Positions 3,403 through 60,165 of a stretch of 64,000 nucleotides of DNA are shown in pieces. The translations under genes were made by a program, and so were the position numbers. Origin of the DNA: the human T2T-CHM13v2.0 reference genome, Homo sapiens. Numbering within the stretch: position 1 is the first letter of the stretch; each line of letters opens with the position of its first letter. Where the stretch lies: assembly GCF_009914755.1 (NCBI RefSeq), contig NC_060930.1; one strand, given 5' to 3'. The notes under the pieces were generated by a model. It had not been told where the DNA came from. It did no database searches and saw only the letters and a program-made list of their open reading frames with translations.

Positions 3403-4464
3403 TTATGGGGGAAGAGATATTTGCTTCGCAAAAGGATTTGCAACAGGGCTTCTTTCAGTAATAAGAAACCAAAGTGCATTGAAAATGGAATTTGATTTAC
3501 AAAAATGTGATTTATCTGCAAATTTTCAGAAGCCCATGCCTTGTAGGGTATGGATGTGTGCTTGCAAATATGCAGAACTTGTCAGTGCCTCTCTCCATGT
3601 AGTTGGGGAGAGGGGCAGGGATGTCAGATGGAAATCCTCGCCAAGTCTGCTGACTACACACTCAAGGGTCTGATGGCAATCTAGCTTGGATGGCCACAAA
3701 TACCATCTCCTTCCGCACCTCCAGCTTGCAAAGGGGAAACTGAACACTTTATCCTCAAGGCTACCACGATCCAAAAATTCAAGGTGTATTGTCCTCAAAA
3801 GGTCCTCATCTCCAAATTCTTTCCTTTTATCCCCTAACTCACTAACCAGCTCAGCCTCCAATGGATGTTTTGAGTGGGGTTAACTAGGAAAGATCTTATC
3901 AATTATCTCAGCTGACTTCTTCATTGATGACTGATGAAAAAAATGAGGCAGGAGCCTGCCCCAAACCAGCACCTACTAGACCCTGTGCCGTCCAGCCTTC
4001 ATCCTCACCAGGCATCCCCATATAGTTGTACAAGGCCAAAGCCAAGAGAAAAGGCTCTGGGCAGCACAGTCCCACTGTCCTGTCTCTTCCAGCCCCATGC
4101 CTCCCTCCCTCTCCCTGCTTCACTCCCCTTCTTTCCCTGCTGGAAGTGAACAGATGAGTCATTTGAACTTTAGCTTCCTAGACTGCTCTTCTGGATGAGT
4201 TTGGAACTCACTCTTTTTGGTTAAGGACACCATCCACTAATTAACACCCCCAACCCTTAGGAGACAACTCCTGTGCTGGACACTAAACTAGGGTCTCAAA
4301 GGATTGTCTTGGTAACGCCTTAAAGGAACGGACACCTAGGGACTTGAAGACACACCAGGGAGTAAAATTCAGGTCTCTGATAATTTCCAGAACTTGTTCC
4401 AGCAGACAAACGGACTCTTCTTCAAATGTAAGCTCCTTTCTTGTAATAACAAGAAGGCTGATCA

Positions 4465-6692: not shown

Positions 6693-7178
6693 CTTCCCAT
6701 GTTGTTGCATATGGCAGGATTTCCTTCTTTGCTAAGGCTGAATTCTACTCCGTTACATGTATATTCCACTTTTCTTTAACCGCTCCTTCGTTAATGAACA
6801 CCAAGGTTGCCTCCACATCTTGGCTGTTGTGGATAATGCAATCAACATGGAAGTGCATGTCTGAGAACCTGATTTTAATTCTTTTGGATGAATACCCAGG
6901 AGTAGGATTGCTGGATTTCACTTATATGGAGTATCTAAAATAGTCAGACTCCCAGAAGCAGAGAGTGGAATGGTGGTTGCCAGGGACTGGGAGGAGGGGG
7001 AGATGGAGAGTTGTTATTCAATAGGTACACAGTTTCAGTCATGCAAGGTGAATACATTCTAGAAATCTGCTGTACAATGTTGTTGTACATTGTTGTAGTT
7101 AACAATAGCTTATTGTACACTTAAAAACTTGTTAAGGGAGGAGATCTCAAGTGAAGTGTTCTCAATACAATAAAAAAA
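6693..7178. mobile_element. L1MA8/9-like 3' end with 5' inversion (6693-6916 minus, 6917-7178 plus)
   Basis: Antisense L1 3'-region sequence joined directly to a sense L1MA 3' terminus ending 'tacaataaaaaaa'. Confidence 0.8.
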
Positions 7179-9350
7179 TCATCAAAATCACAATGCCCCA
7201 TTCTGCTGGTTTCTGTGAGGGAGGCTGATTGATCTTGCTGCCTAGTTGGGGACAGTAAGCCGGGCTATACCTGACACTATATTGCATCTGTGTTGCTCTT
7301 CCTGCTGCTGCCTTTGTTCCAGATGTCTCCTGACTTTCTTGTTCTTTCACAAGAATCAAAGCCTGTGATTATTGGTCAAGCAAGAATACAGGGCAGGAGA
7401 CCACCTCACCCATCCAAAGAAATGCATGCAGAAAAGCCATGTTTTCTAATTGTGGGGAGCCACCACCTGACCCTACCCAGGCTCCCTCCTTCCTGTCTTA
7501 TACCATCTGAGCCCCAGGTACCTGTAGAGGGATCTGCTCATAGGACCTGGGGCCTAAGTTTCTGCCCCTCCACCACCAGTGTCTAGTCTCCAACTTCAGT
7601 GGAGAGGGAGAGCTAGGGCACCTAGAGAAAAGCCCCATCGCTGCCTCCTTTCTCAGGGTGAGGTTCTCATGACTGCTCACTGGGAAGGACTGGGATGTGA
7701 GCTGGAATCCCAGTATGAGGAGAAAGTGTGCCCCCATACTCCTTGCTCCTTCTTTTCCTTTCCTTCCCTTCCTGAAGCTCAGCTGTGACCCTCCATTTAC
7801 GTCCATGGGGGGAAGCTCTTTACCTGGGCAGGCCCCCTGTTTCTCAGCCAAGTGTCCCAGTACTGCCAGCCCTGTCTTGAAGTTGACCCCAGAACATCTT
7901 CTCCCATGGTTCAAAGGGCCTGGGCAGCCACTCTTGTTCCAACAGAGCCACCCTTGCATCAGGGTGGGGAGAACAGGGTTCTTGAATGAAGGTTTTATAT
8001 TGTATTTCTTACTGCTTGAAGTTGTACTTGGGGGTGAAGTGGATTAAGACAAGAGTTTATTGTTACTTTCCACTACAACCAGGTGGACTGTACCTGAGAC
8101 AGAAGCGGGATGAGAATAAAAGGGAGGGACTCCCATCTCCCCTAGAGGAGCGATGGCCTCCTGTTACCCTGCAGGCTCCCTAGAGCAGAGCTGTGATTTG
8201 CTGGGAGTGGGGACCATCTTCTTATGCATAATTATGTTTTGCAGAGGGGGTTCTAGAACACTAAGGAATGGCTTCTTCACCACTGGCACACTGGGCAAGG
8301 CTGGGGAGAGCTATGGGGTGTGGTTTCCCTGCTGTGGTTTATTGGTAATTGTACCAAGAATAGTGGAAAGGATGACTCTTGGGTCACAGATGACTGTGGC
8401 AGCAGTGCCATCTTCATGTGGGTGGGGAGGTGACTCCCAGGGAATTGGGACCCTGTGCTTATGTTGTTTATGTCTGAAGTTATATCAAGGGCTCTTGGAT
8501 GCCTTTCAGTTCACATTTGGGACAGTGAGGCTCAATTTCCTGCTGGGCCTGGGGGAAGTAAGCAGCTGGCCCCACCTCCTTAGAAATTTTCTCCAGTCTA
8601 AGCCCTGACTCATAGCTGGTTTTTCCTTTCAAATGATGACCACAGCCCACTCTGGATGCCAAATCTGTCGGTTCTCAGGGATCTAGGAGGGCAAGAGTGG
8701 ATCTGGTCAACCTGGGGAAGACTCATGGGGGACAGGCAGGATTTCCCACTCTCCCAGGCCCTGGATGAACTCTGATATTCAACATGCCCAGTATTACTGA
8801 GGAAAATATTGGTACTCCTTAGCACAAATATCTCACAGAGAATTCTAACCTCAGATAAGGAAGACCAGGCTGGATGGCCTCTGAAATACTTGCTGTGCCA
8901 GTTCAGTGATTCTAGAACCCAATATGCCCAATGTTATCATTAATATGCTGCCATTGATTACAATGTGCTCAGTGATGCATATAATTAATATAATGGAGGC
9001 CGTTAGCACTTCCACTTCTCCAAGTCTGTGTTATGCATTTAATTACTTTAGCACTTCACAGTTTATCAGTATACCATCCCCTGAGCTAGATATTTCTCCA
9101 ATGCCATTTTACAAATTAAGGAATTTTACAAATTAAGGTCATAGAATAAAACCCCACCTTCCTCACTCACGAAGAGACAAGCAGCTTCCCCCTATCTAGG
9201 CTGCTGAAGGACCTTCTTGTTCTTCCCAGGCCACCACCCTATAGCCCACACTGTTTGCCCTCCCCCACAAGCTCACACAACCACATCCCCGAAACTCCAA
9301 AGGAGTTTGCTCCCTCAGGCCTCCTTGGTCCTCAGAAAAAACAGTCATTC

Positions 9351-9640
9351 TTTTTTTTTTTTTTGAAGGTGTCTCGCTTTGTTGCCCAGGCTGGAGTGCA
9401 GTGGCGCAATCTCTGCTAACTGCAACCTCCGCCTCCGGGTTCAGGCGATTCTTCTCCCTCAGACTCCTGAGTAGCTGGGATGACAGGCGCGTGCCACCAC
9501 GCCCAGCTAATTTTTGTATTTTTAGTGAGATGGGGTTTCACCATATTGGCCAGGCTGGTCTTGAACTCCTGACCTCGTGATCCTCCCGCCTCATCCTCCC
9601 AAAGTGCTGGGATTACAGGCGTGAGCCACTGCGCCAGGCC
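9351..9640 (-). mobile_element. Full-length Alu (AluSg-like)
   Basis: Reverse Alu with a T tail. TSD aacagtcattc at 9340-9350 and 9643-9653. Confidence 0.95.
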
Positions 9641-11519
9641 ACAACAGTCATTCCTAACTGGATGGAAAGCTAATTTCTTCCCCTTCAAGGCATTAGTTGA
9701 GCTTCAATAAATGAGACAAGCAGGTCTGAGAACCACTAAGAGCACCCGTGAATTCTTCTGGCTGTAAGAACTACCTTGGACTGAGTGATTTTCTGGCCAA
9801 TCCATCCTTGCCCAGGCGGTGTGTTCCTCAGAGTCACAGGTACCTGGTAAATTTGTGAAAACATGCCTGTCTGTCAGCTCGAGAAGCTAGTTCTTCAGGG
9901 AGGCTTGTAAAGACCTCAAAGTCATGGGGCTATGTTCTTTCATTTCTCACAACATGGGGAAGACTGTCTAGCATTCAGCAAGTTACTAAATGTGAGTTGT
10001 TTTGATTTCTACGTCTCCCTCACATTGCTGCTGGGCTCTGTGTTCTAAAGTTCATGGCCCATGTGTTAGGATCCGTGACTTGGGACATTAAAGACTTTTC
10101 TGGGTTTTATACTGGGGTAGGAGAATATATTTACTGAAGGCTTACTCAGCCCTGTCCCTTACTAGGACTGTGACCTTGGATGTCTCTTGTTTAACTTTTT
10201 TATATCTTAGCTTGTTCATCTAAAACATGAATCTTTGTGTCATGGGCTTAGTGAGGATTAGTTATCATAGCACATATGAGGTGCTTAGCAGAAGTTGCGT
10301 AAAGAAATACCAGTTTCTCCCTTTCCTACCCATAAAGCCCCATCTACATTGCTAAGAACCTTGCTTTTTGTGGAGCCTTACAATAGTCAAGTGAGATTAG
10401 CAGGAGCCCCACCTCCTGGGCTTCAATCTTTCATCACAGGTGCCATTGCTTGGTCCATCCGTGTCCTTGAAACATTTGGTAAAGCCACATCTTAGAGCAT
10501 CTCCTCTGCTCCCCTCCCCTAGGCTGAACAAATCTAACTCCCTTGAGATCCAGCTTTATCCCAGCCCCACCCTCCTCCCCTGCCTGTGTCATGGCTGACT
10601 CAGGGACCATGCCAGGTTCTAGAAGGCCAGTGGCTCATTATCCCTACCCTCTGCACTTTGGCCCCATGGGCCAGCTTTAGCTCCTCATTTGAGGAGGCCT
10701 GGGTGGGGTGATGGGCAGGGCCAAGCCATGGGATATTTACAGAGGGTTCTGGAGTCGGGTTCCCTGATGTGACAGCTGCTGTGTCCTCAAGAGCATGTGC
10801 ACCCCCATACCTACTGATCCTGGGCTAAAAAGGCAACAGGTAAAAGTGAGGTTGTCAGGAGTCCTGAGGTGCCCACAGGTGGTATATGACCCCTAGGCAG
10901 GAAGAAAGAGCACCCTGAGGCCAGAATATAGGCTTCCCTTCCTCAGAGTCCTAGTCCCTGCTTTTTGTTGTTGTTGTTGATGCCACATTTACTGCCACTG
11001 CTACTCCTCTCTTGCATTCTCTGGTGGCTGGAATGTGAGAAGGGAGAGAAAGTAAAGAACACTATCAGGGGTGCCCCCAGGCTCTGAGTTTCAAGAGTCT
11101 CCTTGTCCACTGCTTCAGCCAGAACCAGAGGTTTTCTTCTGCATCTCATTGTCGGCACTGTGCGGCTCACTCCTGGGTTTCAGGTCATGCTGAGTTCTGC
11201 TCAAGAGATTCCAGAGGAAAAAGTGTGCACAACTCAACACCAGTTTTGTGGTACTTGGAATCCTGGTTGTTTTCACCCATCTACTTGCTGGTATTTACTG
11301 TTCGGATCATTCAATTAGCTCCACCATGCCCTCTATCAAGGTTGTATCGTCAGTGGGAGAGAGAGGCTGCCATGTGTTTACTTCATCTTACCTGGAACAG
11401 AACACAGTAAAATGGTAAAGCCCTATCAAGTCCTTCTCCTCCCTCCAGAAGGAAGGAGTCAAGCCCTGGCTTATTGTCACATTGTCCCGTATCCCTGTAA
11501 AAACACAATCACACCTATT

Positions 11520-20657: not shown

Positions 20658-21214
20658 TTATATATATAGAGAGAGAGACAGAGAGAGAGCAGATCTAAAT
20701 GATCTAAATGTAGAATCTGAAAGCATAAAACTTCTTAAGAAAAAACATTTACAACTGTGGAGATCAGGCAAAGATTTCTTAGGGATGATACCAAAATCAT
20801 GACCCATATAAAAGAACAAATTGGTAAATTGGGATTCATCAAAATTAAAAACTTCTTTTCTTCAAAATACACTCTTTTTCCTGTATATTAATTATCATGT
20901 ATTTGAATACCATTTTTAAAACCTGTAAATCTGTACAAACATACATTTTGCAACCTTGATCAAACTATTTTATTTTATTGTTGAAAGAACACTTAACATG
21001 CGATCTATCCTCTGAACAAATTTTTAAGTGTACAACACGTTGTTGCTGATTATAGGAACAATGTGATAAAGCAGATCTCTACAGCTTATTTATCTTGCTT
21101 GACTGAAACTTTATTCCTGGTGATTAGTAACTCTCCATTTCCTCCTCCTCCTATTCTCTGGCAACCACCAGAGAGCTCATATAAGTGGAATCATGCAGTC
21201 TTTCTGTGACTGGC

Positions 21215-21591: not shown

Positions 21592-22884
21592 CTGGTTTAT
21601 TTCACTTAGCATAATGTCCTCAAGATTCATCTATGTTGTCACACATTACATAATTTCCTTCCTTTTTAAGGCTGAATATTATTCCATCATATGTATATAC
21701 CATGTTTTCTTTATTCATCTATCCGTCTATGGACATTTAGGTTGCTTCCACATGTTGGCTTTTGTGAATAATGCTGTAATGAGTAGAGGAATGCTAATAC
21801 CTCTTTGATATCCTGATTTTAATTCTCTTGGATAAATACCCAGAAATGGAATAGCTAGATCATATGATAATCCTACTATTTATTTTTTTGAGGATCTTCT
21901 TCTATACTGTTTTCTATAGCAGCTGCAACATTTTGCATTCTCACCAACAATGTACAAGGATTCCAGTTTTTCCACATCCTCTTCAACACTTTGGTTTTTC
22001 TGATAATAGCCATCCTGAGAAGTGTGAGATGTTAGCTCATTGTGGTTTTGACTTACATTTCCTTGATGTTTATTGATGTTGAACGTTGATGTTTAGTAAC
22101 CTAACTATCAGGTTAATAGTTTGTTTTTTGCCTATTGAGTTGTAGGAGTTCCTTACATATTTTGGAGATTAACCCCTTATCAGATATAAAGCTTGCAAAT
22201 ATTTTCTTCTGTTTTGTAGTTTGTCTTTTCACTTTATCAATGACTTCCTGTGCAGAAGCTTCTTAGTCTAATGTAGTCTCACTTATTTATTTTTGTTTTT
22301 ATTGCCTGTGCTTTTCTGTCATATCCATAAAATCATTGCCAAGACTAAGTCATGAAGCTTTTCTTCTATGCTTTTTGTAGGTGTTTTACAACTTCAGTCT
22401 TACAATTAAATCTTTAATCAATTTTGGTTTTTGTGGGTGGTGTAAGATAAGGGTCCAGTTTTATTTCTCTGCATGTGAATATCCAGTTTTCCATAATCAT
22501 TTCTTGAAGAGATTCTTTCACCCATTGTGTAGTTTTGGCACTCCTTTGTGGATGATCAGTTGAGCATTTATGAGCGGACTTATTTCTGGGCTCGCTATTT
22601 TGTTTCATTGGTCTATATGTCTGTTTTTATGCTGGCATTATATTGTTTTGATTATCATAACTTTGTAATGTAAAATATTTTGAAATCAGCCATTTTTATT
22701 ATACAAGTCTTTTACCTCCTTGGTTATGTTTATTCCTAGGTATTTTTATTCTTTGTGGTGTTATTGTGCATGGGATTGTTTTCCTAATTTCCTCTTCAGA
22801 TAGTTTGTTTTTGGTATATAGAAACACAATTGATTTTTGTTGTTATTTTTGTATTCTACAACTTTACTGAATCTATTTATTAGT

Positions 22885-28728: not shown

Positions 28729-29204
28729 TGCGTTAGTCTGTTCTATCACTGCTATAAAGAAATACTTGAGACTGGGTGATTTATAAAGAAGTTTCTGCTG
28801 CACTCCAGCCTGGGTGACAGAATGAGACCTTGTTTCAAAAACAAACAAACAAAAAAAGGTTTAATTGGCTCACAGTTCCACAGGCTGTACAGAAAGCATA
28901 CATAGCAGTTTCTGCTTCTGGGGAGGCCTCAGGACACTTCCAGTCATGGTAGAAGGCAAAGGGGGAGAAAGCACTTCCTATGGCCAGAGCAGGAGAAAGA
29001 GAGGGAGGAGGGAGGTGCCACACACTTTTAAACAACCAGATATCAGGAGAATTCATTATTGCCATGACAGCATCAAGGAGGATGGTATTAAACCATAAGA
29101 AGTCACCCCTATGATCCAATCACCTCCCACTAGGCCCCACCTCCAACAGTGGAGATTATTATTTGACAAGAGATTTGGGCAGGACACAGATCTAAACCAT
29201 ACCA
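28729..29204 (-). mobile_element. MSTA/MSTB-like MaLR LTR containing a 5'-truncated Alu (~28795-28857, +)
   Basis: 'tgcgttagtc...ggacacagatctaaaccatacca'. An Alu 3' end 'gcactccagcctgggtgacaga' plus A-rich tail interrupts it. Confidence 0.88.
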
Positions 29205-30087
29205 GTGTGTATGGAGCTTCTTTTGAGGGTGATAAAAATATTCTGCAATAGGGTTAGTGATAATGATTGCACAATTTTATGATTGAACTGAAAGCCACTA
29301 AATTGTACACTAAATACTGTTAATTCTATGCTACATTAATTTTATATCAATTTTTTAAAAAGGGATATGGGAGGCTCAAATATAATGGTACATTTGAACT
29401 TTTCAGAACAAGGTCTTTCAAAACACTTGCCCAATAAATATAAATATATGGGCATCCCCCAATTGGCCTTTAAGGCATTCTCTTCCATTGGCCAAGAGCA
29501 TTCTCATCTGCTCAGCAACTTTCTCCCATTGGCCGGACCCTTGATGCTGAGGCTTTGAAGCAGAGCCTGGGTTTTCCAGGCACTGCTGATTAGCCGGGGG
29601 AAGAAAAGTAGGGTGTTGTAGCAAACCCTCCAGTTAGGACTTTGGGTCCCTAGGAGCTGACTGAGTCTGTTCAAGCATTTTCTCTCTAGTGCCAGGCCTT
29701 TGGTTGGTGGGAAAAAGTCATAGGATGGCACTGGGGGGGTCTATTTGCAGTCGTACTCTTAACTCTTGTGAGACCTCAAAACAAGTGCCTTCTGGGTGGT
29801 GCTTTCCACTGGGGTAAAATGAAAAGACTCCAGGATCACAGGCACCCAGGGTTCAAAGGCCTGTTAAGTAGAGAGCAGGAGACAGTACCAGCACAGCCCT
29901 AACTCTGTCGGGCCTGTCCTCTCAGAAGCCAGGCCATGGCCCACCTAAATTCTGGAAGGCCCCACCTCCCTTAGCCCCAACAGGCAGTGCTCATCATCAA
30001 CGACTTTCCTCCAAGCCCCCGCCCTCTGCATACTGCATGGACTCCAGGAGTCCCCTGCCCCCACTCCCACCCAGGAAAGCTGGTCTA

Positions 30088-30240
30088 GGACCAATCAGAG
30101 GCTGTGGAACTTTCTGGAAGGCCCAGGGCTTCTCCCTGGGTGGGGCAGGGCCTCTGATTGGAGGAGGCCTGCCAGAAGGGTGGGGCGATGGGCGTGGCTA
30201 ACGGGATAACTGCCAGAGCAGAAGACAGTTGGCAGTTATT
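30088..30240. promoter_or_regulatory. TDRG1 promoter: two inverted CCAAT (NF-Y) boxes, GC/KLF boxes, four MYB (YAACKG) sites
   Basis: ccaatcagaggc 30091-30102 and its exact reverse complement 30150-30161. gggtggggcg and gggcgtggc at ~30178-30198. taacgg 30199, taactg 30207, cagttg 30226, cagtta 30233. Confidence 0.75.
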
Positions 30241-30830
30241 TCGCAACCTTCATCTGTTCCTGGAAGATACCCGTAGCCTGCCTTCCTTCTTGACAGGCTG
30301 ATTTAGGGGTGCTCCCCAAGAAGATCAGGACTGCTGAAAGAATGAAGAAGAACTTACTTGGCCTAGGATGTGGCTAGAGAACGGAGCGCACTTTCACTTA
30401 CCTGGCAAGGTGGTTTTGGAAGTTTCCACGGAAGCCTTCCCAGGGCCGCTGCTGCCCGTCCTCGCCTAGGTGTGGAGCTTCCCGACCGGCTGGGGAGGGA
30501 ATGTCCTGCGGGAGCCGCCGAGGACCCTCTTTAGCCTCTTCCCTGGCTTGGCTGCAGCTGCAGTCTGGTACTCGCCCATTCTGCTCTTCTTCACCTCCGT
30601 ATTTTCTCTCTCACGGAAGAAGAATTCCATTCTCCCATCCCAGGAAGGAGAGTGCCCTGCGTGCCACGAAAGAGCCCAGGACCCACAGGACAAATACGTC
30701 ACTGGCAGACCTGCCTTCGCCAGCGCCAGCCCATCTCTGAAACCTCCAGCATTTGTGCCCCGGTCCGGCCCCTCCCAGGCCTGACTCTTTCCGTGTGGGT
30801 ATTTTCCTCCTGGGCTCGCTGCCGCCTCGC
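30180..30830. promoter_or_regulatory. Weak CpG island over TDRG1 exon 1
   Basis: Clear local CpG enrichment relative to the depleted flanks. Confidence 0.65.
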
Positions 30831-31207
30831 TCCCATTTCTCCCTTCCCTCCCTATGGTAACTGATGAAGGGTTGGGGCTGGTGGAACCCAGATCTGGGGT
30901 CAGAAGTTCCCCTTGTCAAGTCCCAAGTCTTCCATCTAAGCTGTGTGATCATGGGAAAGACACTTTACCCTTTGTGGGCATGCCCGCTCAACTGGAAAGT
31001 GACACAATCATAATGCCCTAATCCAGAATTCTTGTGAGAATGGGAGTAATTATGTAAATATCTTTGGAAAACAGATGTGCTGCCAATTACATTTTGTGAT
31101 TTTAACTTTGTCTTATTTCTCTGCTGTTTTGTCTTCCTATGTATCAAGTTTCTTCTGATTTTTTTTTTTCTTTTATAGGAACGGTCACTGCGCAGGATCA
31201 AGCTACA

Positions 31208-31510
31208 ATGAAGAGGAGGGAGGCAGTCTGCGCGCACCGCCATTTTCTAGGAACTGGGAAGCCCCCCCACCCCTTAGGAAGATCCATCCCTGTGGAACCT
31301 TGCCCAGGCTTACCAGCCTTTGCTGAGGTTGATCTATTGTCCCTCCTTGTCCCCATCAAAATATCCAGCACTCCACCTTCAGGGAGTAGACTTGACCCTC
31401 AAATAGCAAGTTCAGCCTTCCCAGGTCTAGGTTCCCTGGGAGGTCAAGATTCGTCTGGTTCCTTAGTACAGAGGGCTAGCTGTGAGTTGGAATCCCCCTA
31501 TGAGCTTTAG
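31208..31510 (+). CDS. TDRG1: TDRG1 putative 100-aa protein (MKRREAVCAH...ESPYEL); coding status doubtful
   Basis: ATG at 31208, TAG ending 31510. Matches my recollection of the TDRG1 peptide. No recognisable domain, and several upstream ATGs. Confidence 0.6.
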   Translation: MKRREAVCAHRHFLGTGKPPHPLGRSIPVEPCPGLPAFAEVDLLSLLVPIKISSTPPSGSRLDPQIASSAFPGLGSLGGQDSSGSLVQRASCELESPYEL

Positions 31511-31762
31511 AATCAGTCAAGAGGAATTGGGCCCCTTCCCTTCATCCCTCTTCTTTTCCCTTTTTGTCCCAGAGCTCAGCTCTGACTCAAAAGTTTTTCC
31601 ATTTACCATCAACATGGAAACTTGGCTCCTCACGTAGGTATATTATCCCCCTTTTGTACATGGTCTTGTTGATCCAAACTCCCTTTCTGTGAAAGAGGCC
31701 TGTGGGGCTCAAGAAGCCTGGTCAGCCAGCCAGGCTAGTCCCACATACCTCAGAACCAGTTT

Positions 31763-31768
31763 AATAAA
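31763..31768 (+). terminator. TDRG1 polyadenylation signal
   Basis: AATAAA followed by CA and a T/GT-rich downstream element, with an upstream TGTA at ~31656. Confidence 0.85.
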
Positions 31769-33619
31769 GGCTCTATGTCATTCTTTTTTGCTTGGGCTGA
31801 TTGGTGTGCTGATTCAGAAGACCTTGATATTTTATTCTTTCCCCCAAACCAGCTCAATTGGTGTTTGTGCTAGAGGGAGATGGACCATGGGGAGGGCTGT
31901 TATAAGGGATATCCTTGGCCCTCCCACTTCCCCCTTTGAAGGATGCCCTTGTTATCTTAGGCAGGGACCTGATACCGGTTGGTTCAGTAGATATCTGGCA
32001 GTTTACTCTGAGCATTTACCTTATATTAGGGCAAGAACTAAAGGAACAAATACATCCACCTCAATGTCAGGTCAAGTGGGAGGATGTGGATGGGAGTAAA
32101 GAGTGATTAGTATTGAGGTCGTGGAATTTTATTGGTTACTATTTTTATAACTTTGGTCTTCCAGTCCTTGAATGAAGGTAAACGGAGACTTATTAGGGAA
32201 CAAATTACTAGTGGCAGGGTGGTGGTGTCCTGGTGTCCTGCTTAGAATGTGAAGAGAGTGCCCCATCATTGGCCTATGCTGTGCATCTGGGAGGTGGTAG
32301 GCCACAGTCCTGAACTGCACAACTGGTAGTGAAATTCAGAGCAGAATGCAACATTTATTTAATGGGGCCTCACAGTTGGCCAGTGTCCCTGTGGCCTTTC
32401 CCCTTCTTCCTTCCACTCTGTGTCATGGAGACCCGACTTGATTTGGCAAGAGAACAACGTACACCTAAGATTTCCCGAATATTTCCCAGCAAGGACCCTG
32501 GCTGGCTATGTTTCTACTTCAGTGGTGACCACAGCAGATACTGGCAGTTTTCTGTTATGGCTCTGGGGTCTTTTAAGGAGCAGGAACGTGGAATATGTAC
32601 AAACCTGGAGCCACAGTCAAGTACTAAGCTCCTTGAAGCACAAGGCATGAGAATATCATGTTTTCTTTTCCTTAGAGGATTTATGAATTAAAACTAAGGA
32701 ATAATTTGTAATCAGAATAACACCACCTGGCAGGGATGTTGATGAGCTGAGGAAGGCTTATTTGGAGATTTCTGGTATTTTCCAGCTCTGAGACTCCAGA
32801 CCTAATATCCGTGTAATGGCCATTAATGTCTTGTAATTTATAACAGTTTTATCAGTGATCCATTACATTAATCATCATGAGTTGGTGACTTATCAAGTCC
32901 TACAGGTTATTTGTTATTTGTATAACTATATAGAGCTATTTAATTTACAAACACAATACTCTTTTGAGGTAGATACCAGAACCATTTTACATTTGAGGAT
33001 ATTGAAGCTAGGAAAAAGACTCAGCTCTTGAAGGAATGGACATGGGGTGCCCTTGCCTTCCTTGGGGAGAGAGCCACCTAATCTGTGCAGCTGTAGTTAG
33101 GGCCTGCCACCTTATTCCTCCTCTCCATCCAGCCCCTACATTTTGGAAACAAAAAGGCAGCAGTGATCTGGGAATTATTTAATGCTTAGTTTGACAGGAC
33201 AAATTTTAAGGACCTTAAGAGCAACCTTTTATTTCTTACCATATGAGGCACTGGGACAGGCACAGAGAAGTCAATATTATTTGCCCAGTGCATTTCTTCA
33301 TGGCTTCTGCTTTTTAATCTTAGGCTCACTTTTTTAACCTCATTGCTCACATGTTATGATTCCTTCCAGAAAGTTCACTGAAATTCTAATGTCCCTTGCT
33401 GTTCCTTAGGTAACTTAGGAGTAACTTTCCAGCTCTTCCCCTAACTAGTTGTGTGACGTGCAGCAGGCTGCTTAACTTCTGTGTGTCTCAGTTTTCTCAA
33501 CTGTAAAATGAATGATCCAACCCCTGTGTCAGAAGGATGGGTGAGGCTCATGAGGAATAACACATAAGAAATATGGGATGCTTACCACAGTGTTTGGTAA
33601 ATAACATGAGTTTCCTCTT

Positions 33620-36600
33620 CCCTCTTTGAACAGTCCTTTGTATTCTGCTGAGAGCTTTCCTGTTCATGCTGCCTCACAACCAAAAGGGGAAAGAATCCTG
33701 AGTCCTGTGCTCATGATTTCTCCCTTTGCTAGCTGGTTCAAGGCCAATCCAGATACCATGGTATTTTCTGAAAGAGTCCCACCCTTCTGTGCAAAAGCCT
33801 TCCTCCCAGGGAGACTTGATATGACTGATTAACAATCCAATTAACACTCTGGAACAATCTAGAAGGGCTGTGGCTCATTACCCTCAGCAATTTTCCACCC
33901 ATTTAGTCTCCAAGCCATTCCCTGGAAGAGACAAGTGGATCTGATGAGTGGGGCTGTGCCATGAGACCTCCAGTATTTATGGAGAAGCCAGTCCTTTCTT
34001 CCTTCGCCAGGCCTCAAGATTTCCCAATGTGCCTCTATTCTTACATGGCGGATGGGATTCTTTGCCTTCATACAGGAAGGAACTGGAACCTCAAGGCAGA
34101 CAGGACAAATACAAATCTTGAAAATGACCATGACTCCTAGTTGGTCCCTACTTGCCTCCTGGTTTCACTAAGTAGAGGGTCACTCCATGTAGAGCCCTAT
34201 CCAGCACACTGCTCCTTCCCCCACCTTTAGATGTGGACAGTGGGTGGACTGGGCCCATAGCCTGGACCTGGACAGCTGTGTCCTCCCAACCAGACTCTTC
34301 TGATTCTGCTGCGCCTCACTCTTTCCTACTTATCCTTGCCTAGATCCCTCTTACTCCATCTTTCCTGCTCAGGTCACAATGGACAATAATCTCTGACCCC
34401 TGCCCCAGCTAGACTGGCACTGGAGAGCTGAGAGAGCCTCCTGTCCATGGAGAATTCTGGCAGAGCTGCTATCTTCAGCCCCGTCTCAACTCTCCAGGGT
34501 CCTGTGCCCTTTGTCTACCTCTCCCAGGCCTGACTCTCCTCCCACTTGCATGGACATTGTCTTTCCTAGCTCTGGGCTGCCTTCTCAGCCTCATGTTTTG
34601 CCCTTTTTCCTGCTGTGGGAGCCAGCCATCACTGTAATGCATGAGTGCGGGGATGTGGTGTGAAGGGAACTCCAGTTCTGGGGTCAGAAGATTTAAAGTT
34701 TGAGACCTACTTCTGTCCCATAAGCACTATAAAAACTAAGCCAAATAAACAACTTTGATCCTCAGTTTGGAAACTTTTGTAATGTGAAGAAATTAGACTT
34801 TTGATAAAGAATGGAAGAAATGGTCATCCATGCTAAAGAAATGTTTGGAATGTTGAGATGCTATAGAATCTTTCTGACAGTGCTGCTGACTTTGTATACC
34901 TCTACATATAAATGTCTCCAGTTTTGTTTCTTTTCCACCATTCTGCAGACAAAGCTGAATGCAGGCAGGGAAGGAACCCTCACTGTTGAGCCCTGGAATC
35001 AGGCACTCTTGTCTGAGCCCCTTCATCTTTGGTTTGGGGTAGAAAGCACAGGTGGCACCCTTTCTCTAGTTTTCTCACTTCTGGCACAAACTCTCATTTA
35101 CTGTAACCTAAGAAAGGATGGAAGACCTTGAGCCTCAAGAAAAAAGCCCCAAGAAAATTCCATGCCTCTGCTTCCCTCACAAATCAAAGCTGAGCTAATC
35201 CAGAGCAGTTTGCATGATTCCTTAGAAGAAGGAACCTCACCAGGACTCTTAAAAGCAGGGAGACCAAGGAAGAATTGGGCTTCTGCACTTAATCACTGTT
35301 GAGGTCCTCCCTGCCTGCTCCCAGACCTCTGGAGTGACCCACAGTCTTCTCTATTTACCTTAAAAACAGAATCCAACCTCTTCATGTAGGTGAGTCACCC
35401 CATCTGCAGTTATATGTCCTGGCGCACCCCAGCTCTCCCCAAACAAACTGTGAAGCATCAGCCCTACCCAAGGAACCTGTCCAGCCATGCACACTTCAAC
35501 CAACCCTCTCTGACCTTAGGATGAAACCGTTTCTCTAACATTTTTTTTCACTCACATTGGGACCAGTGTGTTGATTCAGAAGACCAAATTGGGAACTAAT
35601 TTTAATCTCCCTACCTCAAGCAAATGGATGGTCTTCGGACTAGAGGGGGCCCAGGTATTAAAGGGTGTCAGAGAGGGCTGGTCAATGGGCTACCATCCCA
35701 CCACCCCTTGGGAAGAGCTCACCTCCCTTCTCAAGTGGAGAGCCTCTGGCCCACTCTCAGCCCTCTGATCAGAGCCAGGCTCTCACTGAGTGATTTTTCT
35801 GGCACCTGGCAGTCTTCCCATCCTAGAAGGGGAACAGTGGGAGGTTTTTGGTGGCAGCATTTGTGTCATTCCAGAATACTGGATGTTAGATTTTGGCTGT
35901 TGGGAAAATCCTGGAACAAAGATGAAAGGTGAGAAGGATTAGGGAACCAATGAGTGAGGGGCAGGATGGCCATCCTCAGCCCAGCAGTGAAGTCTACAAT
36001 TTTCCAGGTGCTTCCATCTACTATTGGGGCTGTTGTGTATGTCAGAACATTCAGGGCATCAGGGAGTACAGAGGTTACCATGTGCTCTCTGCCACTTCCC
36101 TGCCTCCTTTCTTCTCTCAAAATCATAGAGACCAGTGCTGATTTGGCAGGGAATATCGAACCTCTTGAGATTTTTCCAGCTGGAACCCTGGCTCTGTACC
36201 TAGTTTTTTAACACTATTTTGACCATAGCAGTCTTTGGGAGCTGCTTGATGTCTGGGCTCTGGATTTCCCATGAAGTCAAGAATGATGGATTCACAAGGG
36301 CCCACCGGGAATATGGAGCCATGGTCTGATTAGAGCACAGAGAGCTACTTCCTGCCTTGGGTAAATCCTGAAATTCATCATGCATGATTTTCCTTTTAAT
36401 AAGATTAAGGAGAGCTTGTATAGATATTGAACAGGGGATCCTGATAGCCATTGAGGGAGGCTGGAGTAGATGACCTCTGATAGCTTTTGCCAGCTTTGAG
36501 AGTCTATGAACTTAACATATGTAATATTATCATTAATATGCTATAATTTATGTTACTTTAAATGATGCATATCATTAATAATAATGACTGTTATTACGCT

Positions 36601-37690
36601 GCCTTTTCCGATCCAATATGTGATCTGTGTAACTACATAGTACTACAGAAGCATACTTACTGAAGTCGATACTTACCATTGATATCTTACCAAAAAAGAA
36701 ACTGTGGCCAAGAAACAGCCTCTCAACCCAGAACCCCCAAACTAAACAGCCTCTTTCTCTCAGGAGGAACTGAACCTGCCTTGGTTTACTCAGTTCTCTG
36801 CAACTACCCTTCTTCCAGACCTGCTTTGTTCCCTCCACCACACCTCCTCTCAAGCTCCTGGGACAGCTAGAGATGCCTCCCTCAACCCCTGCTTGTCCAG
36901 GCACAGGATCCCAGTCCTTAATGTGCCCCTGTTAGACCCAAAGCCAGTCACTTTTCCATACCAGGTCTTAATTTCCTCTTCTGTAAAGTGACTCAAGATT
37001 TTGAAACTTAAAATCTGGTGAATTCTTCCAAGCACAGGTGCCATCTTATGTTGTATGGCCTTTGGCCAATCCATCTGTCCATCTTTTCTTGGATAGTAGT
37101 TTTGCCAGATCTATAAGTTATCTTGAAATTAGTGAAAACAGACCAATCTTTGATAACCAGAGATCTAAAGCATCAGCTTATGGCCCTGTCCTTCAGGGTA
37201 ATGTGTAAGGCCCTCAAAGCCATGCACAGTGTCTTTCACTTTGACTTTTATCTCTCTCAATACCATGCACAGTGCTAGGCACACAGCAGGTCAGCAAGAG
37301 CATGCTGAATGAGCACAAACAGATTTCACCATCTCTCCCACTTTTTCTGCTGGACTCAGTCTTCTGAAAGTCAAGGCACATATGCCAGGATTCAGGCCTT
37401 CGACATGAAACCCAGACAGCTCTGCATTTTTACATCCTCTGCAGCTCTGTAAGAAACTTCAGAGCAAATCCATCTCTTGAGTGTTTACCCAACTTTGTGC
37501 CTCAATAGCTGTGTGACCTTGGGCAAGTTATTTAACTCTTCTCTACCTGAGCTTCCCCAATAGAGATATTAATAATAATACTTATTTCATTGTGTTGTTT
37601 TGATGATAAATTGAGATAATCTATATATAGCTCTTAGACCAGTACACGGCACATAGGAAACTCTCAATAAATGTCAGGTATGATTATCAA
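33620..37690 (+). repeat. Diverged tandem paralogue (copy B) of the TDRG1 unit (~29700-33620)
   Basis: Colinear anchors at a ~3.7-3.8 kb offset, e.g. 30772-30788=34521-34537 (17/17), 30893-30906=34677-34690 (14/14), 31804-31823~35566-35585 (19/20), 32423-32448~36123-36148 (21/26). Confidence 0.85.
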
Positions 37691-37949
37691 CTTACTTTTG
37701 CAGTTCAATATTCACCTGAAAAATGCCAACCTAATGTTCTCCTAATGAAAGTATAAGAACTTTTCCATAATTAGTCTGGGTAGGTAAGGCAATCACCCCA
37801 TCTTTGGTAGACAGGAAGGACCATGTCTTCCAAGAGATCCCCACAGGAATGGGTGGGAAGAGCATAACAGGAAACCCAAGATGAAAGCCTTCAGGATTAA
37901 TAGCTGCAACTGAGGGCTTAAATCCCTTCTTCTTGGCAGCAGTACTCCT

Positions 37950-39640
37950 CAAATGGTGAGCAAGTTACCTGCTAGTTGCCAGGACATGCCAAGTCCATGA
38001 CAGAGGGGACAGGTGTAGTGCACTGAGGTTTTTACTTCACAACAAAGTGGAAACAATGTCAGATAGGTCAGCTAACACAGGTCTCCATGGTTTGGAAAAT
38101 GGGATATCTTGGATGTAGCCTAGGAGATTCAAGGGAAAGAAAACTCATCCTTGCAAAGTATATGAATGTTAGTGCTGCTGTGGGGTATGCCAGGGAGCAC
38201 CACTGAACACATGTTACAGAGGAGGTGCAGGAGAAGAGGGGGTGTGCTCATCACCAACTAACCAGATGGACAGCCTGGACGGATGGGCTGGGGCTGTGGG
38301 AGGTTGGTCAGTGGGCTGACTGGCTGTGGACCAGATGGGTTTGGGGATCCCATGGAGATGGGTGAAATTCCAGCTCCATTCTCTCATCAGTAGGAAACCG
38401 AGCATGTGACTGTTGACATCTTGGAAAGGACTAGACCATGAGATCTTCCTTGCTCCAATCCCAGACAGACTCCGGCATGAGATAGTGGAGGAGAATTCTG
38501 GCTCCAGGAGCATATTCAGCTGATGGCTAAAGGGACCAGAAGATCAATTATCCCAACAATAATAGGAAAATAACCAGGGAAGAGCCTGTAATCTGGGCCT
38601 ACTTCCTCAGAATAGGTGAGCAAAAGAAAGATGTCACACATTATACAAAATGAGAACATGGAGAAAGATCACTGAACCTGTCAGAAGTTCCTAAATAGCT
38701 ATGATAGGGGTCACAGGATAGCCTTAGAGGTAAAAGCTAGCTTCTCTCTTTGGTCTGGGGAAAACATGCCAATTTCTCTCTGATAGAAGCTTCAGGGAAG
38801 GGAAACCACGAGCCTTGTAAACATTGACTGACTGTGAGGTACAGAACCTTAATTGAGATGATGGAAGCTACAACCTTTGGTTTAAGGGCTGAAAGCACAA
38901 ATAGATATTTTTAAACTGTGAAAGTGACAGGGTTCCTTTTAGATATTGGGGGAGTAACCTGGATGGGCCTGATTCTATTATGCAAAGGTAGAAACCTCAG
39001 GTATTTACCTGTGAGAAGCCTCCTTGTCACAACAAATTCTTCTTGCTGCCAACTGCATCACATGGAAAGGCTAGGTTTGATAATCTAGGTGGGATCTTTA
39101 AAACGGTGTATGCAGGTTTTGAGTGCTGCCTGCCAATAGTCTCTTCTTTTGAATAAGTGTGTCTATTTTTCTGGCAGCAGTTTGCAGAAATCCCACTGGT
39201 TGTAAGAACAGAGGAAGCCCCACCCAGCTTGCTGAAGCCCTGAGACCTTCACTGCAGGCACACTGAGAACAGAAGATACAGAAGTACTCAGGCTGTACTT
39301 ATGAAAAATCAATACTCACAGACTTTTAAAGAAAAGTTACTTTGCATTTGGGAAGGGGGAATCCTGAGACAGTGACTGTTGCCTAGCCTGGCTGACAATT
39401 ATATCCCTTAACAAAAAAGTGTTCCTGAGGTCTTTTCGAATTTCAACACTGTAATGGTGAAAAAATAGAAAATTCTCTTGAGGGAAACCTGAGGGATATG
39501 TCATTATCGAGAATGTGGGGAAAGGGGTCAAACTGTTTTTCCAGAAAGCTTAATAATCAACTAGGCAAATATTGTATCAGCTATCTCACCTCTGCAAAAG
39601 ATTGAAGAGCTGGAGGCTTCTGTATATCAGGAAAGAGGAT
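37950..39640 (-). mobile_element. Highly decayed Ty3/Gypsy-type pol (RT and integrase remnants; MamGyp-int-like)
   Basis: Frameshifted minus-strand translations: QENFL..SPLQC/KFEKTS/..IIVSQ (RT), FTR/GFPSLKLLSER and PYH.....DRFS (integrase core), in Gypsy RT-then-IN order. Confidence 0.6.
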
Positions 39641-59767: not shown

Positions 59768-59866
59768 ATGCTCTCTTTGGCAGCATTTCCATTAAAACTG
59801 GAACCATGCAGAGGTCAGCATGGCCCCTGCAGAAAGATGACAGCAAATTTGTGAAGCATTTTATAT
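59768..59866 (+). pseudogene. U6 snRNA retropseudogene (near full length)
   Basis: Aligns end to end with U6 (GTGCTCGCTTCGGCAGCA...AGCATGGCCCCTGC...GTGAAGCGTTCCATAT) with about 20 substitutions and two small deletions. No U6 PSE/TATA promoter evident upstream. May be RNU6-250P (recollection, unverified). Confidence 0.92.
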
Positions 59867-60165
59867 GAAATTCTGGTACATGCTACAACTTGTGTGAATC
59901 TTGTGTGATTCCACTTATATAAAAGACCTGGAGTAGTCAAATTCATAGAGACAGAAAGTAGCAGGGTGGTTGCTGGGTGCTGGGGGGAGTGAGGAATGGG
60001 GAATTCTTATTTAGTGAGTACAGAGTTTTAGTTTGGGGTGATGAAAAAGTTCTAAAATGGATGGTGACAGTGACTGCACAACAATATGATGTATTTAGTG
60101 CCAGTGAACTGTCCACTCAAATGTGGTTAAAATGGTAAATGTTATGTATATTTTACAATAAAAAA
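59867..60165 (+). mobile_element. L1MB-like 3' terminal fragment fused to the U6 copy
   Basis: 'agtagtcaaattcatagagacagaaagtag', 'gatgaaaaagttct', 'ggttaaaatggtaaat', ending tacaataaaaaa. Confidence 0.88.

What the first reader, a model, noticed from the sequence alone, without database searches (positions are those of the whole stretch)
29700..37690. TDRG1 is one half of an old ~4-kb head-to-tail duplication with a promoter-less twin
Seen: colinear matches between ~29700-33620 (A) and ~33620-37690 (B) run through promoter, exon 1, intron, exon 2 and downstream flank. Examples: ccaatcagaggctgtggaac~ccaattaacactctggaac (30091/33837); ctcccaggcctgactct 17/17 (30772/34521); tctggggtcagaag 14/14 (30893/34677); ctcctcacgtaggt~ctcttcatgtaggt (31626/35378); gtgtg(c/t)tgattcagaagacc 19/20 (31804/35566); 21/26 at 32423/36123. 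Several anchors are outside interspersed repeats. Copy B lacks the CpG enrichment, the second CCAAT and MYB block (about 80-90 bp shorter there) and the AATAAA. Inference: too diverged for standard segmental-duplication tracks, and a natural side-by-side record of how a testis gene was gained or lost. Outer boundaries are less certain than the core.
Basis: seen in the sequence. Interest (0 to 1): 0.8.

Follow-up and report, generated by a model that had tools for sequence, protein, structure and literature searches.

The report
Ancient three-copy duplication around TDRG1
The testis gene TDRG1 sits in one copy of a very old, heavily decayed local DNA duplication that has a silent-looking twin right behind it and a third copy 23 kb upstream, which gives a modest natural comparison of how one copy came to be a gene.

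Summary
A single colinear diagonal at +3.70-3.78 kb links A (30660-33020) to B (34415-36720) at about 60% identity. The chain score is 356; 184 real-sequence controls had mean 61 and maximum 220, and 100 dinucleotide shuffles had maximum 93. The outer +4.0 kb matches are sense MIR SINEs plus a ~300-nt length difference.

New findings. A third colinear copy, C, lies at 7183-10738 (E 1.3e-52 to an A/B profile). It partly underlies the first exon and start site of LINC00951 on the opposite strand. Each copy carries the same mosaic: body, flank, MIR, then a 0.4-kb "P" block. P follows the MIR in C and at the A-to-B junction, and precedes TDRG1's start site in A. That pattern fits head-to-tail duplication of a composite segment and does not fit three insertions of one transposon.

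No further copy was found in 264 kb, and no transposon protein domains were found.

TDRG1 exon 1 and intron 1 have no detectable counterpart in B or C. Only A has CpG enrichment, four MYB-type motifs at the start site, the splice signals and AATAAA.

The three copies are roughly equidistant (JC about 0.27 per lineage; local MIRs 0.40), so the events are of the order of 100 Myr old or more. This is an ordinary kind of event, apparently undescribed in the papers searched here.

The parts
29877..30213 (+). P_A: promoter-proximal block of copy A, ending 21 nt before the TDRG1 start site (30234). Homologous to P_C and, through it, to P_B.
   Evidence: nhmmer with P_C as single query against 264 kb hits 29915-30211, E 1.8e-4. 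Three-way alignment. Two CCAAT (30091 +, 30157 -) and four YAACNG motifs at 30199-30238.
30214..30659 (+). G_A: TDRG1 exon 1, intron 1 and the first 40 nt of exon 2. CpG-enriched. No detectable counterpart in B or C.
   Evidence: Banded tile 30300-30599 has z 1.0. Focused nhmmer found no hit at E<=10. CpG observed/expected 0.47. G_A is 446-447 nt and G_B 442-443 nt, so the spacing is kept.
30660..33020 (+). Body of copy A. Holds the 3' part of TDRG1 exon 2, intron 2, exon 3 (100-aa ORF at 31208-31510, AATAAA at 31763) and 1.2 kb of downstream flank.
   Evidence: Colinear HSPs to B. Tiles with z 7-17. Profile hits. ORF and signals.
30916..31064 (+). Sense MIR detected in copy A only (TDRG1 intron 2).
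   Evidence: Local MIR profile, E 1.2e-12. No MIR hit at the matching place in B or C at E<=10. There is no clean 150-nt gap in B, so insertion after the duplication is not proven.
31490..31740 (+). Sub-block of the body (3' part of TDRG1 exon 3) that also has a short relative on chromosome 8. Probably an old low-copy interspersed repeat fragment built into the unit.
   Evidence: A/B profile hits L022 2034-2256 at profile positions 894-1151, E 1.1e-16. Identity A-chr8 0.586, B-chr8 0.575, A-B 0.591. Whole-genome DNA search found 93 nt at 77%.
32952..33014 (-). Weak antisense MIR-like fragment at the right end of the body, at the matching place in B (36661-36713).
   Evidence: MIR profile, E 5.7e-4 (A) and 0.084 (B) in a 10-kb search. 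Marginal antisense hits of the body profile's last 80 positions on other MIR sites.
33179..33418 (+). Flank of copy A between body and MIR. About 300 nt shorter than in B and C.
   Evidence: nhmmer places 33179-33415 on 37178-37458, E 3.9e-5. Flank lengths are 398 nt (A), 746 nt (B) and about 660 nt (C without its Alu).
33419..33608 (+). MIR_A: sense MIR SINE that closes copy A. P_B starts directly after it.
   Evidence: Local MIR profile, E 9e-27, profile positions 15-196.
33593..33972 (+). P_B: the P block of copy B, at the A-to-B junction.
   Evidence: P_C as single query hits 33600-33969, E 6.4e-7 in 264 kb. 0 CpG in 33688-33972. No YAACNG motif.
33973..34414 (+). G_B: positional equivalent of TDRG1 exon 1 and intron 1 in copy B. 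No detectable similarity to G_A.
   Evidence: no hit. CpG observed/expected 0.11.
34415..36720 (+). Body of copy B. No RefSeq annotation. Lacks the exon 2 donor GT, the exon 3 acceptor AG (10-nt gap) and the AATAAA of A.
   Evidence: Alignment. The hub's gene table lists nothing between 31790 and 43487.
36816..37466 (+). Flank of copy B between body and MIR.
   Evidence: nhmmer places 36816-37424 on C 9569-10102, E 1.8e-21.
37467..37694 (+). MIR_B: full-length sense MIR that closes copy B. Homology to the other copies ends here.
   Evidence: MIR profile, E 2.1e-45, positions 3-230. Nothing P-like after 37694.
7183..9125 (+). Body of copy C. Overlaps the 5' 734 nt of LINC00951 exon 1 (5349-7916, minus strand) and its start site, in antisense.
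   Evidence: A/B profile positions 388-2472 of 2489, E 1.3e-52, 172 bits. Best hit of the same profile on the reversed 264 kb had E 5.8.
9336..9672 (.). Young Alu-like insertion inside copy C's flank (many close copies nearby).
   Evidence: Most of the 37 further hits of the C-flank query fall on this stretch, best E 2.9e-62. Masked in NCBI's file at 9340-9643 (hub table).
9673..10122 (+). Flank of copy C between body and MIR.
10123..10292 (+). MIR_C: sense MIR at the same relative place as MIR_A and MIR_B.
   Evidence: MIR profile, E 6.2e-18. Shared non-consensus bases with MIR_B number 17 (99.1st percentile of 1532 MIR pairs) and with MIR_A 14 (97.5th percentile).
10302..10738 (+). P_C: the P block of copy C, directly after its MIR.
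   Evidence: 1 CpG; no CCAAT or YAACNG in 10556-10806.

Best explanation
The region holds three decayed paralogous copies of one composite segment of about 3.3-3.8 kb, all on the + strand. A (29877-33608) and B (33593-37694) lie head to tail. C (7183-10738) lies 23 kb upstream.

The ancestral segment was ordinary mammalian DNA, already a mosaic: unique sequence, at least one old low-copy repeat fragment, and a sense MIR SINE.

Inferred mechanism. An unequal exchange or replication error made a tandem duplication with a period of about 3.75 kb. A piece spanning the copy-1/copy-2 junction (body, flank, MIR, next P block) was also copied upstream. Alternatively, a longer array was later broken up. 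The order of events is unresolved because the three copies are about equally distant.

All copies then drifted to about 60% pairwise identity. Only copy A carries the features of a working gene. These are CpG enrichment, two CCAAT boxes, four MYB-type motifs at the start site, splice sites and AATAAA. Copy A is TDRG1, reported in print as a testis-specific, A-MYB-type pachytene piRNA precursor.

Shown here: the homology, its colinearity, the embedded MIR, the junction structure, and the feature differences. Inferred: the mechanism, the age (of the order of 100 Myr or more) and the silence of copy B.
For: (1) One diagonal, far above controls. Chain score 355.7, against max 219.6 in 184 real-sequence controls and max 93.1 in 100 shuffles. 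One peak in the 9-mer histogram.

(2) Third copy. An A/B profile hits 7183-9125 with E 1.3e-52. The best hit on the reversed sequence has E 5.8.

(3) The homology runs through a real MIR and continues on both sides of it. B flank 36816-37424 matches C 9569-10102 with E 1.8e-21. A 33179-33415 matches B 37178-37458 with E 3.9e-5. The MIRs sit at 33419-33608, 37467-37694 and 10123-10292. P_C matches P_B (E 6.4e-7) and P_A (E 1.8e-4), directly after or before these elements.

(4) P follows the MIR both in C and at the A-to-B junction. This is the circular permutation expected of a head-to-tail array. The spacing from P to body is kept: 446-447 nt in A, 442-443 nt in B.

(5) It is not a common repeat. 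With the three-copy profile, 0 further body copies were found at E<1e-3 in the rest of the 264 kb (best other hit E 0.0046, 7.8 bits). A MIR query of similar age found 23 hits in its first pass and 114 after iteration.

(6) 82 of 82 stop-to-stop ORFs of >=45 aa from A, B and C gave no Pfam hit that reached its family cut-off, and no reverse transcriptase, integrase or gag; the one transposase-related row (DUF4096, E 0.1, 13.3 bits against a cut-off of 34.3) is a chance-level match.

(7) Feature differences.

(8) Published passages (PMC13191651, read with the find function). TDRG1 is the positional homolog of mouse 1700008K24Rik, an A-MYB-dependent pachytene piRNA precursor. PMC3691314 (passage): 12 abundant human testis piRNAs map uniquely within TDRG1.
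Against: Only one genome could be examined, so there is no cross-species test of age or copy number.

The whole-genome search available here does not see ~60% identity. It missed B and C when A was the query. Dispersed low-identity copies elsewhere therefore cannot be excluded.

One ~250-nt sub-block has a chromosome 8 relative that is as close to A and B as they are to each other (0.586/0.575 vs 0.591). This shows that at least part of the unit is repeat-derived. It also shows that A-B similarity there is no better than similarity within a repeat family.

The unit's MIRs are only slightly more alike than random local MIR pairs (0.573-0.609 vs 0.536 +/- 0.052). A-B share no excess of non-consensus bases (47th percentile).

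Exon 1 and intron 1 show no homology.

The site patterns (AB 341, AC 285, BC 254) do not fit the simplest 'tandem first, then C copied from A' order.

No Dfam or RepeatMasker annotation was available.
Confidence: 0.8

Rival explanations
1. A, B and C are three independent insertions of one ancient low-copy interspersed repeat (a long non-autonomous or decayed element of 2-3.5 kb). They happen to lie within 30 kb in the same orientation.
For: Pairwise distances are star-like: JC per lineage 0.284, 0.265 and 0.268. A chromosome 8 fragment is as similar to A and B as they are to each other in one sub-block. All copies end their body at the same right-hand point. The whole-genome search here cannot see old copies.
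Against: The unit contains a full MIR with homologous sequence on both sides in all three copies. No further copy lies in the other ~258 kb, even with a three-copy profile. No transposon protein domain was found in 82 of 82 ORFs. Three long same-strand copies within 30 kb would be very unlikely for a family too rare to appear in the rest of the sample. P follows the MIR at the A-to-B junction, as in a tandem array. The chromosome 8 relative covers only about 250 of about 2400 body positions.
Confidence: 0.08
2. A and B are a true tandem duplication, but C is not a paralog of the unit. C only shares several old repeat fragments with it, in the same order by chance.
For: Parts of the unit are repeat-derived: the MIRs, the chromosome 8 sub-block, and weak outside hits of the P profile at E 8.6e-4. 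The region is very rich in MIRs, 114 in 264 kb.
Against: C aligns colinearly over profile positions 388-2472 in a single nhmmer hit, E 1.3e-52. It then continues through flank (E 1.8e-21), MIR and P (E 6.4e-7) in the same order and strand. None of these blocks other than the MIR has a further match in the 264 kb at E<1e-3.
Confidence: 0.05
3. The diagonal is a chance or compositional effect of MIR-rich, GC-similar sequence.
For: Identity is low (53% over the whole MAFFT alignment). 7 of 14 tiles show nothing.
Against: Real-sequence, shuffled and reversed controls all fall far below the observed values. The core blocks are not MIR.
Confidence: 0.01

Closest known systems
Ancient tandem or local segmental duplications below catalogue thresholds (the kind seen only in relaxed genome self-alignments)
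   Same: Same strand, head to tail, period about 3.75 kb. Colinear across unique and repeat-derived pieces. A further dispersed copy lies nearby. Decay looks neutral.
   Different: Identity of about 60% is far below the >=90% over >=1 kb used for segmental-duplication catalogues (recalled definition). The events are about as old as the MIR SINE inside the unit. One stretch, exon 1 and intron 1 of TDRG1, has lost all detectable similarity although its length is kept.
MIR SINE family (mammalian-wide interspersed repeat)
   Same: The outer matches at +4.02-4.06 kb are genuine sense MIRs (33419-33608 and 37467-37694, plus 10123-10292 in C). They match a profile built from 102 local copies.
   Different: The core of the diagonal (30660-33020 against 34415-36720) does not match the MIR profile, apart from one A-only MIR and a weak ~60-nt antisense fragment. 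The name and properties of the family are recalled. No Dfam or Repbase library was available here.
Old low-copy interspersed repeats of mammals (Dfam families with a few hundred to a few thousand copies; names recalled only)
   Same: Star-like distances among copies. One sub-block has a short relative on another chromosome.
   Different: The unit is 3.3-3.8 kb and contains an embedded MIR. It occurs three times within 30 kb and nowhere else in 264 kb. It has no transposon protein domain.
A-MYB-driven pachytene piRNA precursor genes (TDRG1 / mouse 1700008K24Rik, PMC13191651)
   Same: Copy A has four YAACNG motifs within 40 nt at the start site and two CCAAT boxes. The published reports are of testis-specific, A-MYB-dependent piRNA production.
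   Different: This describes only copy A. B and C lack the motifs. The motif consensus is recalled, and no binding or expression data were tested here.

Membership tests
Catalogued segmental duplication (recalled definition: >=1 kb and >=90% identity) | Aligned length of at least 1 kb | tested here: met
   About 2.3 kb of body, plus flank, MIR and P.
Catalogued segmental duplication (recalled definition: >=1 kb and >=90% identity) | Identity of at least 90% | tested here: not met
   0.601 over 1184 aligned nt in 4 HSPs. 0.53 over the whole alignment.
Head-to-tail tandem duplication | Two copies on the same strand, adjacent, with no unrelated DNA between them | tested here: met
   MIR_A ends at 33608 and P_B begins at 33593-33600.
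Head-to-tail tandem duplication | Colinear homology over the whole period | tested here: inconclusive
   Met for body, flank and MIR. P is linked only through copy C. G (30214-30659 vs 33973-34414) keeps its length but shows no similarity.
Head-to-tail tandem duplication | A junction that joins the end of the unit to its beginning (circular permutation seen in another copy) | tested here: met
   In C, P follows the MIR directly (10292 then 10302), as at the A-to-B junction. In A, P precedes the body.
Interspersed repeat (transposon) family | Many dispersed copies in unrelated places | tested here: not met
   0 further body copies at E<1e-3 in the rest of 264 kb with a three-copy profile. The genome-wide search is insensitive and found only one 93-nt match on chromosome 8. 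A sensitive whole-genome search was not possible.
Interspersed repeat (transposon) family | Coding remnants of reverse transcriptase, transposase, integrase or gag | tested here: not met
   82 of 82 ORFs of >=45 aa from A, B and C gave no Pfam match at or above its curated cut-off. 9 of the 82 had chance-level rows (best E 0.0056); one of these is a transposase-related family, DUF4096, at E 0.1 and 13.3 bits (cut-off 34.3). Old non-coding elements would escape this test.
Interspersed repeat (transposon) family | Copies correspond to one consensus and not to a mosaic of other elements | tested here: not met
   A full MIR is embedded at the same place in all three copies, with homologous DNA on both sides. 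A Dfam annotation was not available.
MIR SINE (for the outer +4 kb matches) | Match to a MIR profile over head, core and tail | tested here: met
   Profile built from local copies: positions 3-230 of 231 (B, E 2.1e-45), 15-196 (A, E 9e-27) and 2-177 (C, E 6.2e-18). That the profile is MIR is recognised from recall.
A-MYB-type pachytene piRNA precursor promoter (copy A) | MYB consensus sites at the start site | tested here: met
   4 YAACNG motifs at 30199-30238, against a window background of 0.57 per 250 nt. None in B or C. The consensus is recalled.
A-MYB-type pachytene piRNA precursor promoter (copy A) | A-MYB occupancy and pachytene piRNA output | not testable with these tools
   Only published statements are available: PMC13191651 (passages) and PMC3691314 (passage).

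The most novel reading that the evidence does not exclude
The three copies are a natural experiment in non-coding gene birth. One ancient, neutrally decaying triplicated segment gave rise independently to two testis-type lncRNA genes. TDRG1 arose by gain of an A-MYB/CCAAT start region, a new first exon and a human 100-aa ORF in copy A. LINC00951's start site and first-exon 5' end arose in antisense from the part of copy C that corresponds to TDRG1's 3' end. Copy B stayed silent and serves as the unselected control.
Probability: 0.25. Interest if true: 0.5.

Novelty: new member of a known kind. Interest (0 to 1): 0.35.

Why it matters
TDRG1 is studied as a testis-specific lncRNA, a micropeptide gene and a pachytene piRNA precursor. 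It has two old paralogous segments next to it. One has no annotated transcript. The other carries the start of another lncRNA on the opposite strand.

These copies give built-in comparison sequences for asking which features make copy A a gene. The candidates are the MYB/CCAAT start region, CpG enrichment, exon 1, the splice sites, the poly(A) signal and the ORF.

The finding also explains why piRNAs map uniquely to TDRG1: the paralogs are only about 60% identical.

The event itself, old local duplication followed by decay, is an ordinary process.

Tried and rejected
It was replaced by 82 stop-to-stop ORFs, which gave no transposon domains.

(2) Whole-genome search with a DNA alignment or a sequence-only covariance model is not accepted for this genome. 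Model R1 was therefore never used.

(3) Whole-genome DNA searches with A, B, C and the chromosome 8 piece returned only the query itself plus one 93-nt match. The tool missed B and C with A as query, so these blanks say nothing about old repeats.

The background is therefore one contiguous 264 kb, plus 4 kb of chromosome 8.

(5) L2 or another abundant LINE as the source of the body was considered and rejected. There are no other hits in 264 kb and no RT remnants, and the MIR-like fragment at the body's end has the wrong orientation for an L2 tail. That last point rests on recall.

(6) LTR pair of one provirus: rejected, because the repeat covers nearly the whole period.

(7) A longer array was looked for and not found. 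No body lies upstream of P_A, no P lies after MIR_B, no second body lies after P_C, and no body lies left of the insertion at 6684-7176 in C.

(8) A whole-window 10-mer diagonal histogram, meant to find a larger duplication, was dominated by Alu pairs and was uninformative.

(9) Rfam found only the U6 pseudogene. Tandem Repeats Finder found nothing relevant.

(11) The isolated high-identity islands (17/17, 19/20, 14/14) were considered as signs of constraint. At about 58% background identity over about 2300 positions, a few such runs are expected by my own arithmetic, so no constraint is claimed.

Full report
CHECK OF THE OBSERVATION

A relaxed blastn of 29000-33620 against 33621-38500 puts the six strongest plus-strand HSPs on one diagonal:
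- 30702-30788 / 34457-34537 (69%)
- 30883-30906 / 34666-34690 (92%)
- 31521-31877 / 35269-35647 (59%, E 9e-12)
- 32165-32222 / 35909-35969 (74%)
- 32371-32566 / 36069-36263 (62%)
- 32733-32938 / 36435-36645 (63.5%, E 2e-11)

Their offsets are 3698-3783. Two more HSPs lie at +4019 and +4060.

The colinear chain scores 355.7. Three controls fall far below this. 184 chains of A or B against other 4-kb pieces of the window, both orientations, had mean 61, sd 30.5 and max 219.6. 100 dinucleotide-preserving shuffles of B had mean 46.1, sd 17.3 and max 93.1.

WHERE THE SIMILARITY IS AND IS NOT

I ran a banded local alignment in 14 tiles of 300 nt, each compared with 35 control offsets.
- 6 tiles have z >= 7. 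They start at 30600, 31500, 31800, 32100, 32400 and 32700.
- 1 tile is marginal (30900, z 3.2).
- 7 tiles show nothing. These cover 29400-30599 (upstream region, exon 1, intron 1; z <= 2.6), 31200-31499 and 33000-33599.

The tile without signal at 31200-31499 holds the 100-aa ORF of TDRG1 (31208-31510).

Direct A-B homology therefore runs from about 30660, inside exon 2, to about 33020. It matches 34415-36720 at 55-70% identity in the good blocks.

THE OUTER MATCHES ARE MIRs

I built a profile iteratively from one local copy. It finds 114 copies in 264 kb, which I recognise from recall as the MIR SINE. It places sense MIRs at 33419-33608, 37467-37694 and 30916-31064.

The +4.06 kb match is MIR_A against MIR_B. 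The shift from +3.7 to +4.0 kb comes from the flank between body and MIR. That flank is 398 nt in A and 746 nt in B.

A THIRD COPY

A profile of the A/B body alignment, searched over 264 kb (the window plus 100 kb on each side), hits 7183-9125 on the + strand. The hit covers profile positions 388-2472 of 2489, with E 1.3e-52. On the reversed sequence the best E is 5.8.

The homology continues to the right:
- B 36816-37424 matches C 9569-10102 (E 1.8e-21).
- C has a sense MIR at 10123-10292.
- The 0.4 kb after it (P_C, 10302-10738) matches 33600-33969 (E 6.4e-7), directly after MIR_A.
- P_C also matches 29915-30211 (E 1.8e-4), directly before the TDRG1 start site at 30234.

C carries a young Alu-like insertion at 9336-9672. 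On its left it is cut off by other repeats at 6684-7176.

The stretch between P and body has no detectable similarity in any pair. In A this stretch is 30214-30659 (exon 1, intron 1). In B it is 33973-34414. Its length is kept in A and B: 446-447 nt against 442-443 nt.

DUPLICATION OR TRANSPOSON?

Evidence against independent insertions of one repeat family:
- The unit contains a full MIR at the same place in all three copies, with homologous non-MIR DNA on both sides.
- P follows the MIR in C and at the A-to-B junction, but precedes the body in A. This is the circular permutation expected of a head-to-tail array.
- A three-copy profile finds no further body copy at E<1e-3 in the remaining ~258 kb. 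The best other hit has E 0.0046 and 7.8 bits. A MIR of similar age, used as a single query, found 23 copies at once.
- 82 of 82 stop-to-stop ORFs of >=45 aa from A, B and C gave no Pfam match at or above its family cut-off, and no reverse transcriptase, integrase or gag. 9 of the 82 had chance-level rows, best E 0.0056, one of them the transposase-related family DUF4096 at E 0.1.

Evidence that keeps the rival alive:
- The three copies are almost equidistant. JC per lineage is 0.284 (A-B), 0.265 (A-C) and 0.268 (B-C). Site patterns over the columns shared with C are AB 341, AC 285 and BC 254.
- A ~250-nt sub-block (A 31490-31740) has a relative on chromosome 8 that is as close to A and B as they are to each other: 0.586 and 0.575 against 0.591. 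At least that piece is an old repeat fragment.
- The whole-genome search offered here cannot see 60% identity.
- I had no Dfam library.

I read the unit as a mosaic of unique DNA and old repeats that was duplicated as DNA. My confidence in that reading is 0.8.

AGE

Local MIR copies are 0.689 identical to their consensus on average (n = 78; JC 0.40). Random local MIR pairs are 0.536 +/- 0.052 identical. The three unit MIRs are 0.573-0.609 identical to each other.

Two of the three unit pairs share an excess of non-consensus bases: 99.1st and 97.5th percentile of 1532 pairs. The A-B pair does not (47th percentile).

The copies' divergence of about 0.27 per lineage is therefore about two thirds of the MIR figure. 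The duplications happened not very long after the MIR inserted. From recalled MIR ages and human-lineage rates, that is of the order of 100 Myr or more. This is an inference. I cannot place it before or after the human-mouse split.

The A-only MIR at 30916-31064 could be a later insertion. B shows no clean 150-nt gap there, so this remains open.

WHAT DISTINGUISHES COPY A

| Feature | A | B | C |
|---|---|---|---|
| CpG observed/expected | 0.42-0.55 over 30200-30800 | 0.08 (33688-34660) | 0.04-0.10 (10391-11180) |
| YAACNG motifs at the start site | 4, at 30199-30238 | none | none |
| CCAAT boxes | 30091, 30157 | 33837, 34024 | none |
| Exon 2 donor GT | present | absent | not compared (C has no homologous sequence there) |
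| Exon 3 acceptor | present | 10-nt gap | an AG remains |
| AATAAA (31763 in A) | present | absent | absent |

The window background for YAACNG is 0.57 per 250 nt. RefSeq lists nothing over B (hub table).

At 60% identity, an unselected 6-mer survives only rarely. The absence of these signals in both B and C therefore does not tell gain in A from loss in B and C.

CONTEXT FROM PAPERS

- PMC13191651 (passages read with the find function): TDRG1 is the positional and sequence homolog of mouse 1700008K24Rik, an A-MYB-dependent pachytene piRNA precursor. TDRG1 yields piRNAs when expressed in GC-2 cells. Its 100-aa micropeptide region is not conserved in mouse.
[quoted passage not shown] This fits paralogs that are only about 60% identical.

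I found no paper on a duplication of this locus. Three searches were run: 'TDRG1' (277 papers, 25 listed), 'LINC00951' (24 papers, 15 listed), and 'TDRG1' with 'duplicat' (34 papers, 15 listed, none with both terms in title or abstract). I saw listings only. Subscription papers are not covered.

VERDICT

It needs three amendments: there are three copies, exon 1 and intron 1 are not detectably shared, and the 3' end matches are MIRs.

It is a new example of a known kind of event. It is of moderate interest as a built-in comparison for how TDRG1 acquired its gene features. The same may apply to the start of LINC00951, which lies antisense in copy C.

Noticed in passing
window 7183-7916 (and 7917-8400): The start site (7916) and the 5' 734 nt of LINC00951 exon 1 (minus strand) lie inside copy C, antisense to it. 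The matching part of copy A is the 3' end of TDRG1 exon 3 and the DNA just beyond its poly(A) site (about 31000-31720; upstream promoter side about 31720-32200).
   Followed up: partly
L022 2034-2256 (G000 contig C8:101873034-101873256): A ~220-nt relative of the unit's sub-block A 31490-31740 / B 35235-35500 lies next to an Alu on chromosome 8. It has 77% identity to B over 93 nt. No other genomic match was found by the insensitive whole-genome search. It is either an old low-copy repeat or a fourth partial paralog.
   Followed up: partly
window and 100 kb on each side (L002-L021): MIR density is high. A locally built profile finds 114 copies in 264 kb, about one per 2.3 kb. NCBI's masking covers only 6% of the window and masks none of the three unit MIRs, nor the A-only MIR at 30916-31064.
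   Followed up: no
window 31208-31510: The published 100-aa TDRG1 ORF lies in the one part of exon 3 that has no detectable similarity to copy B (tile z 0.9). B keeps an ATG at the aligned start; C does not.
   Followed up: partly
window 6684-7176: Repeats with other copies in the window (20972-21202 minus, 21617-21861 plus, 59773-60132 plus) abut the left end of copy C. They may have replaced its first ~390 positions.
   Followed up: no
window 59768-59870: The U6 snRNA pseudogene RNU6-250P matches Rfam RF00026 over the full model (55.4 bits, E 3.2e-11). It is the only Rfam hit in the window.
   Followed up: yes
window 9106-9138: A perfect 17-nt tandem duplication (1.9 copies) sits at the right end of copy C's body, inside the weak antisense MIR-like stretch.
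   Followed up: no
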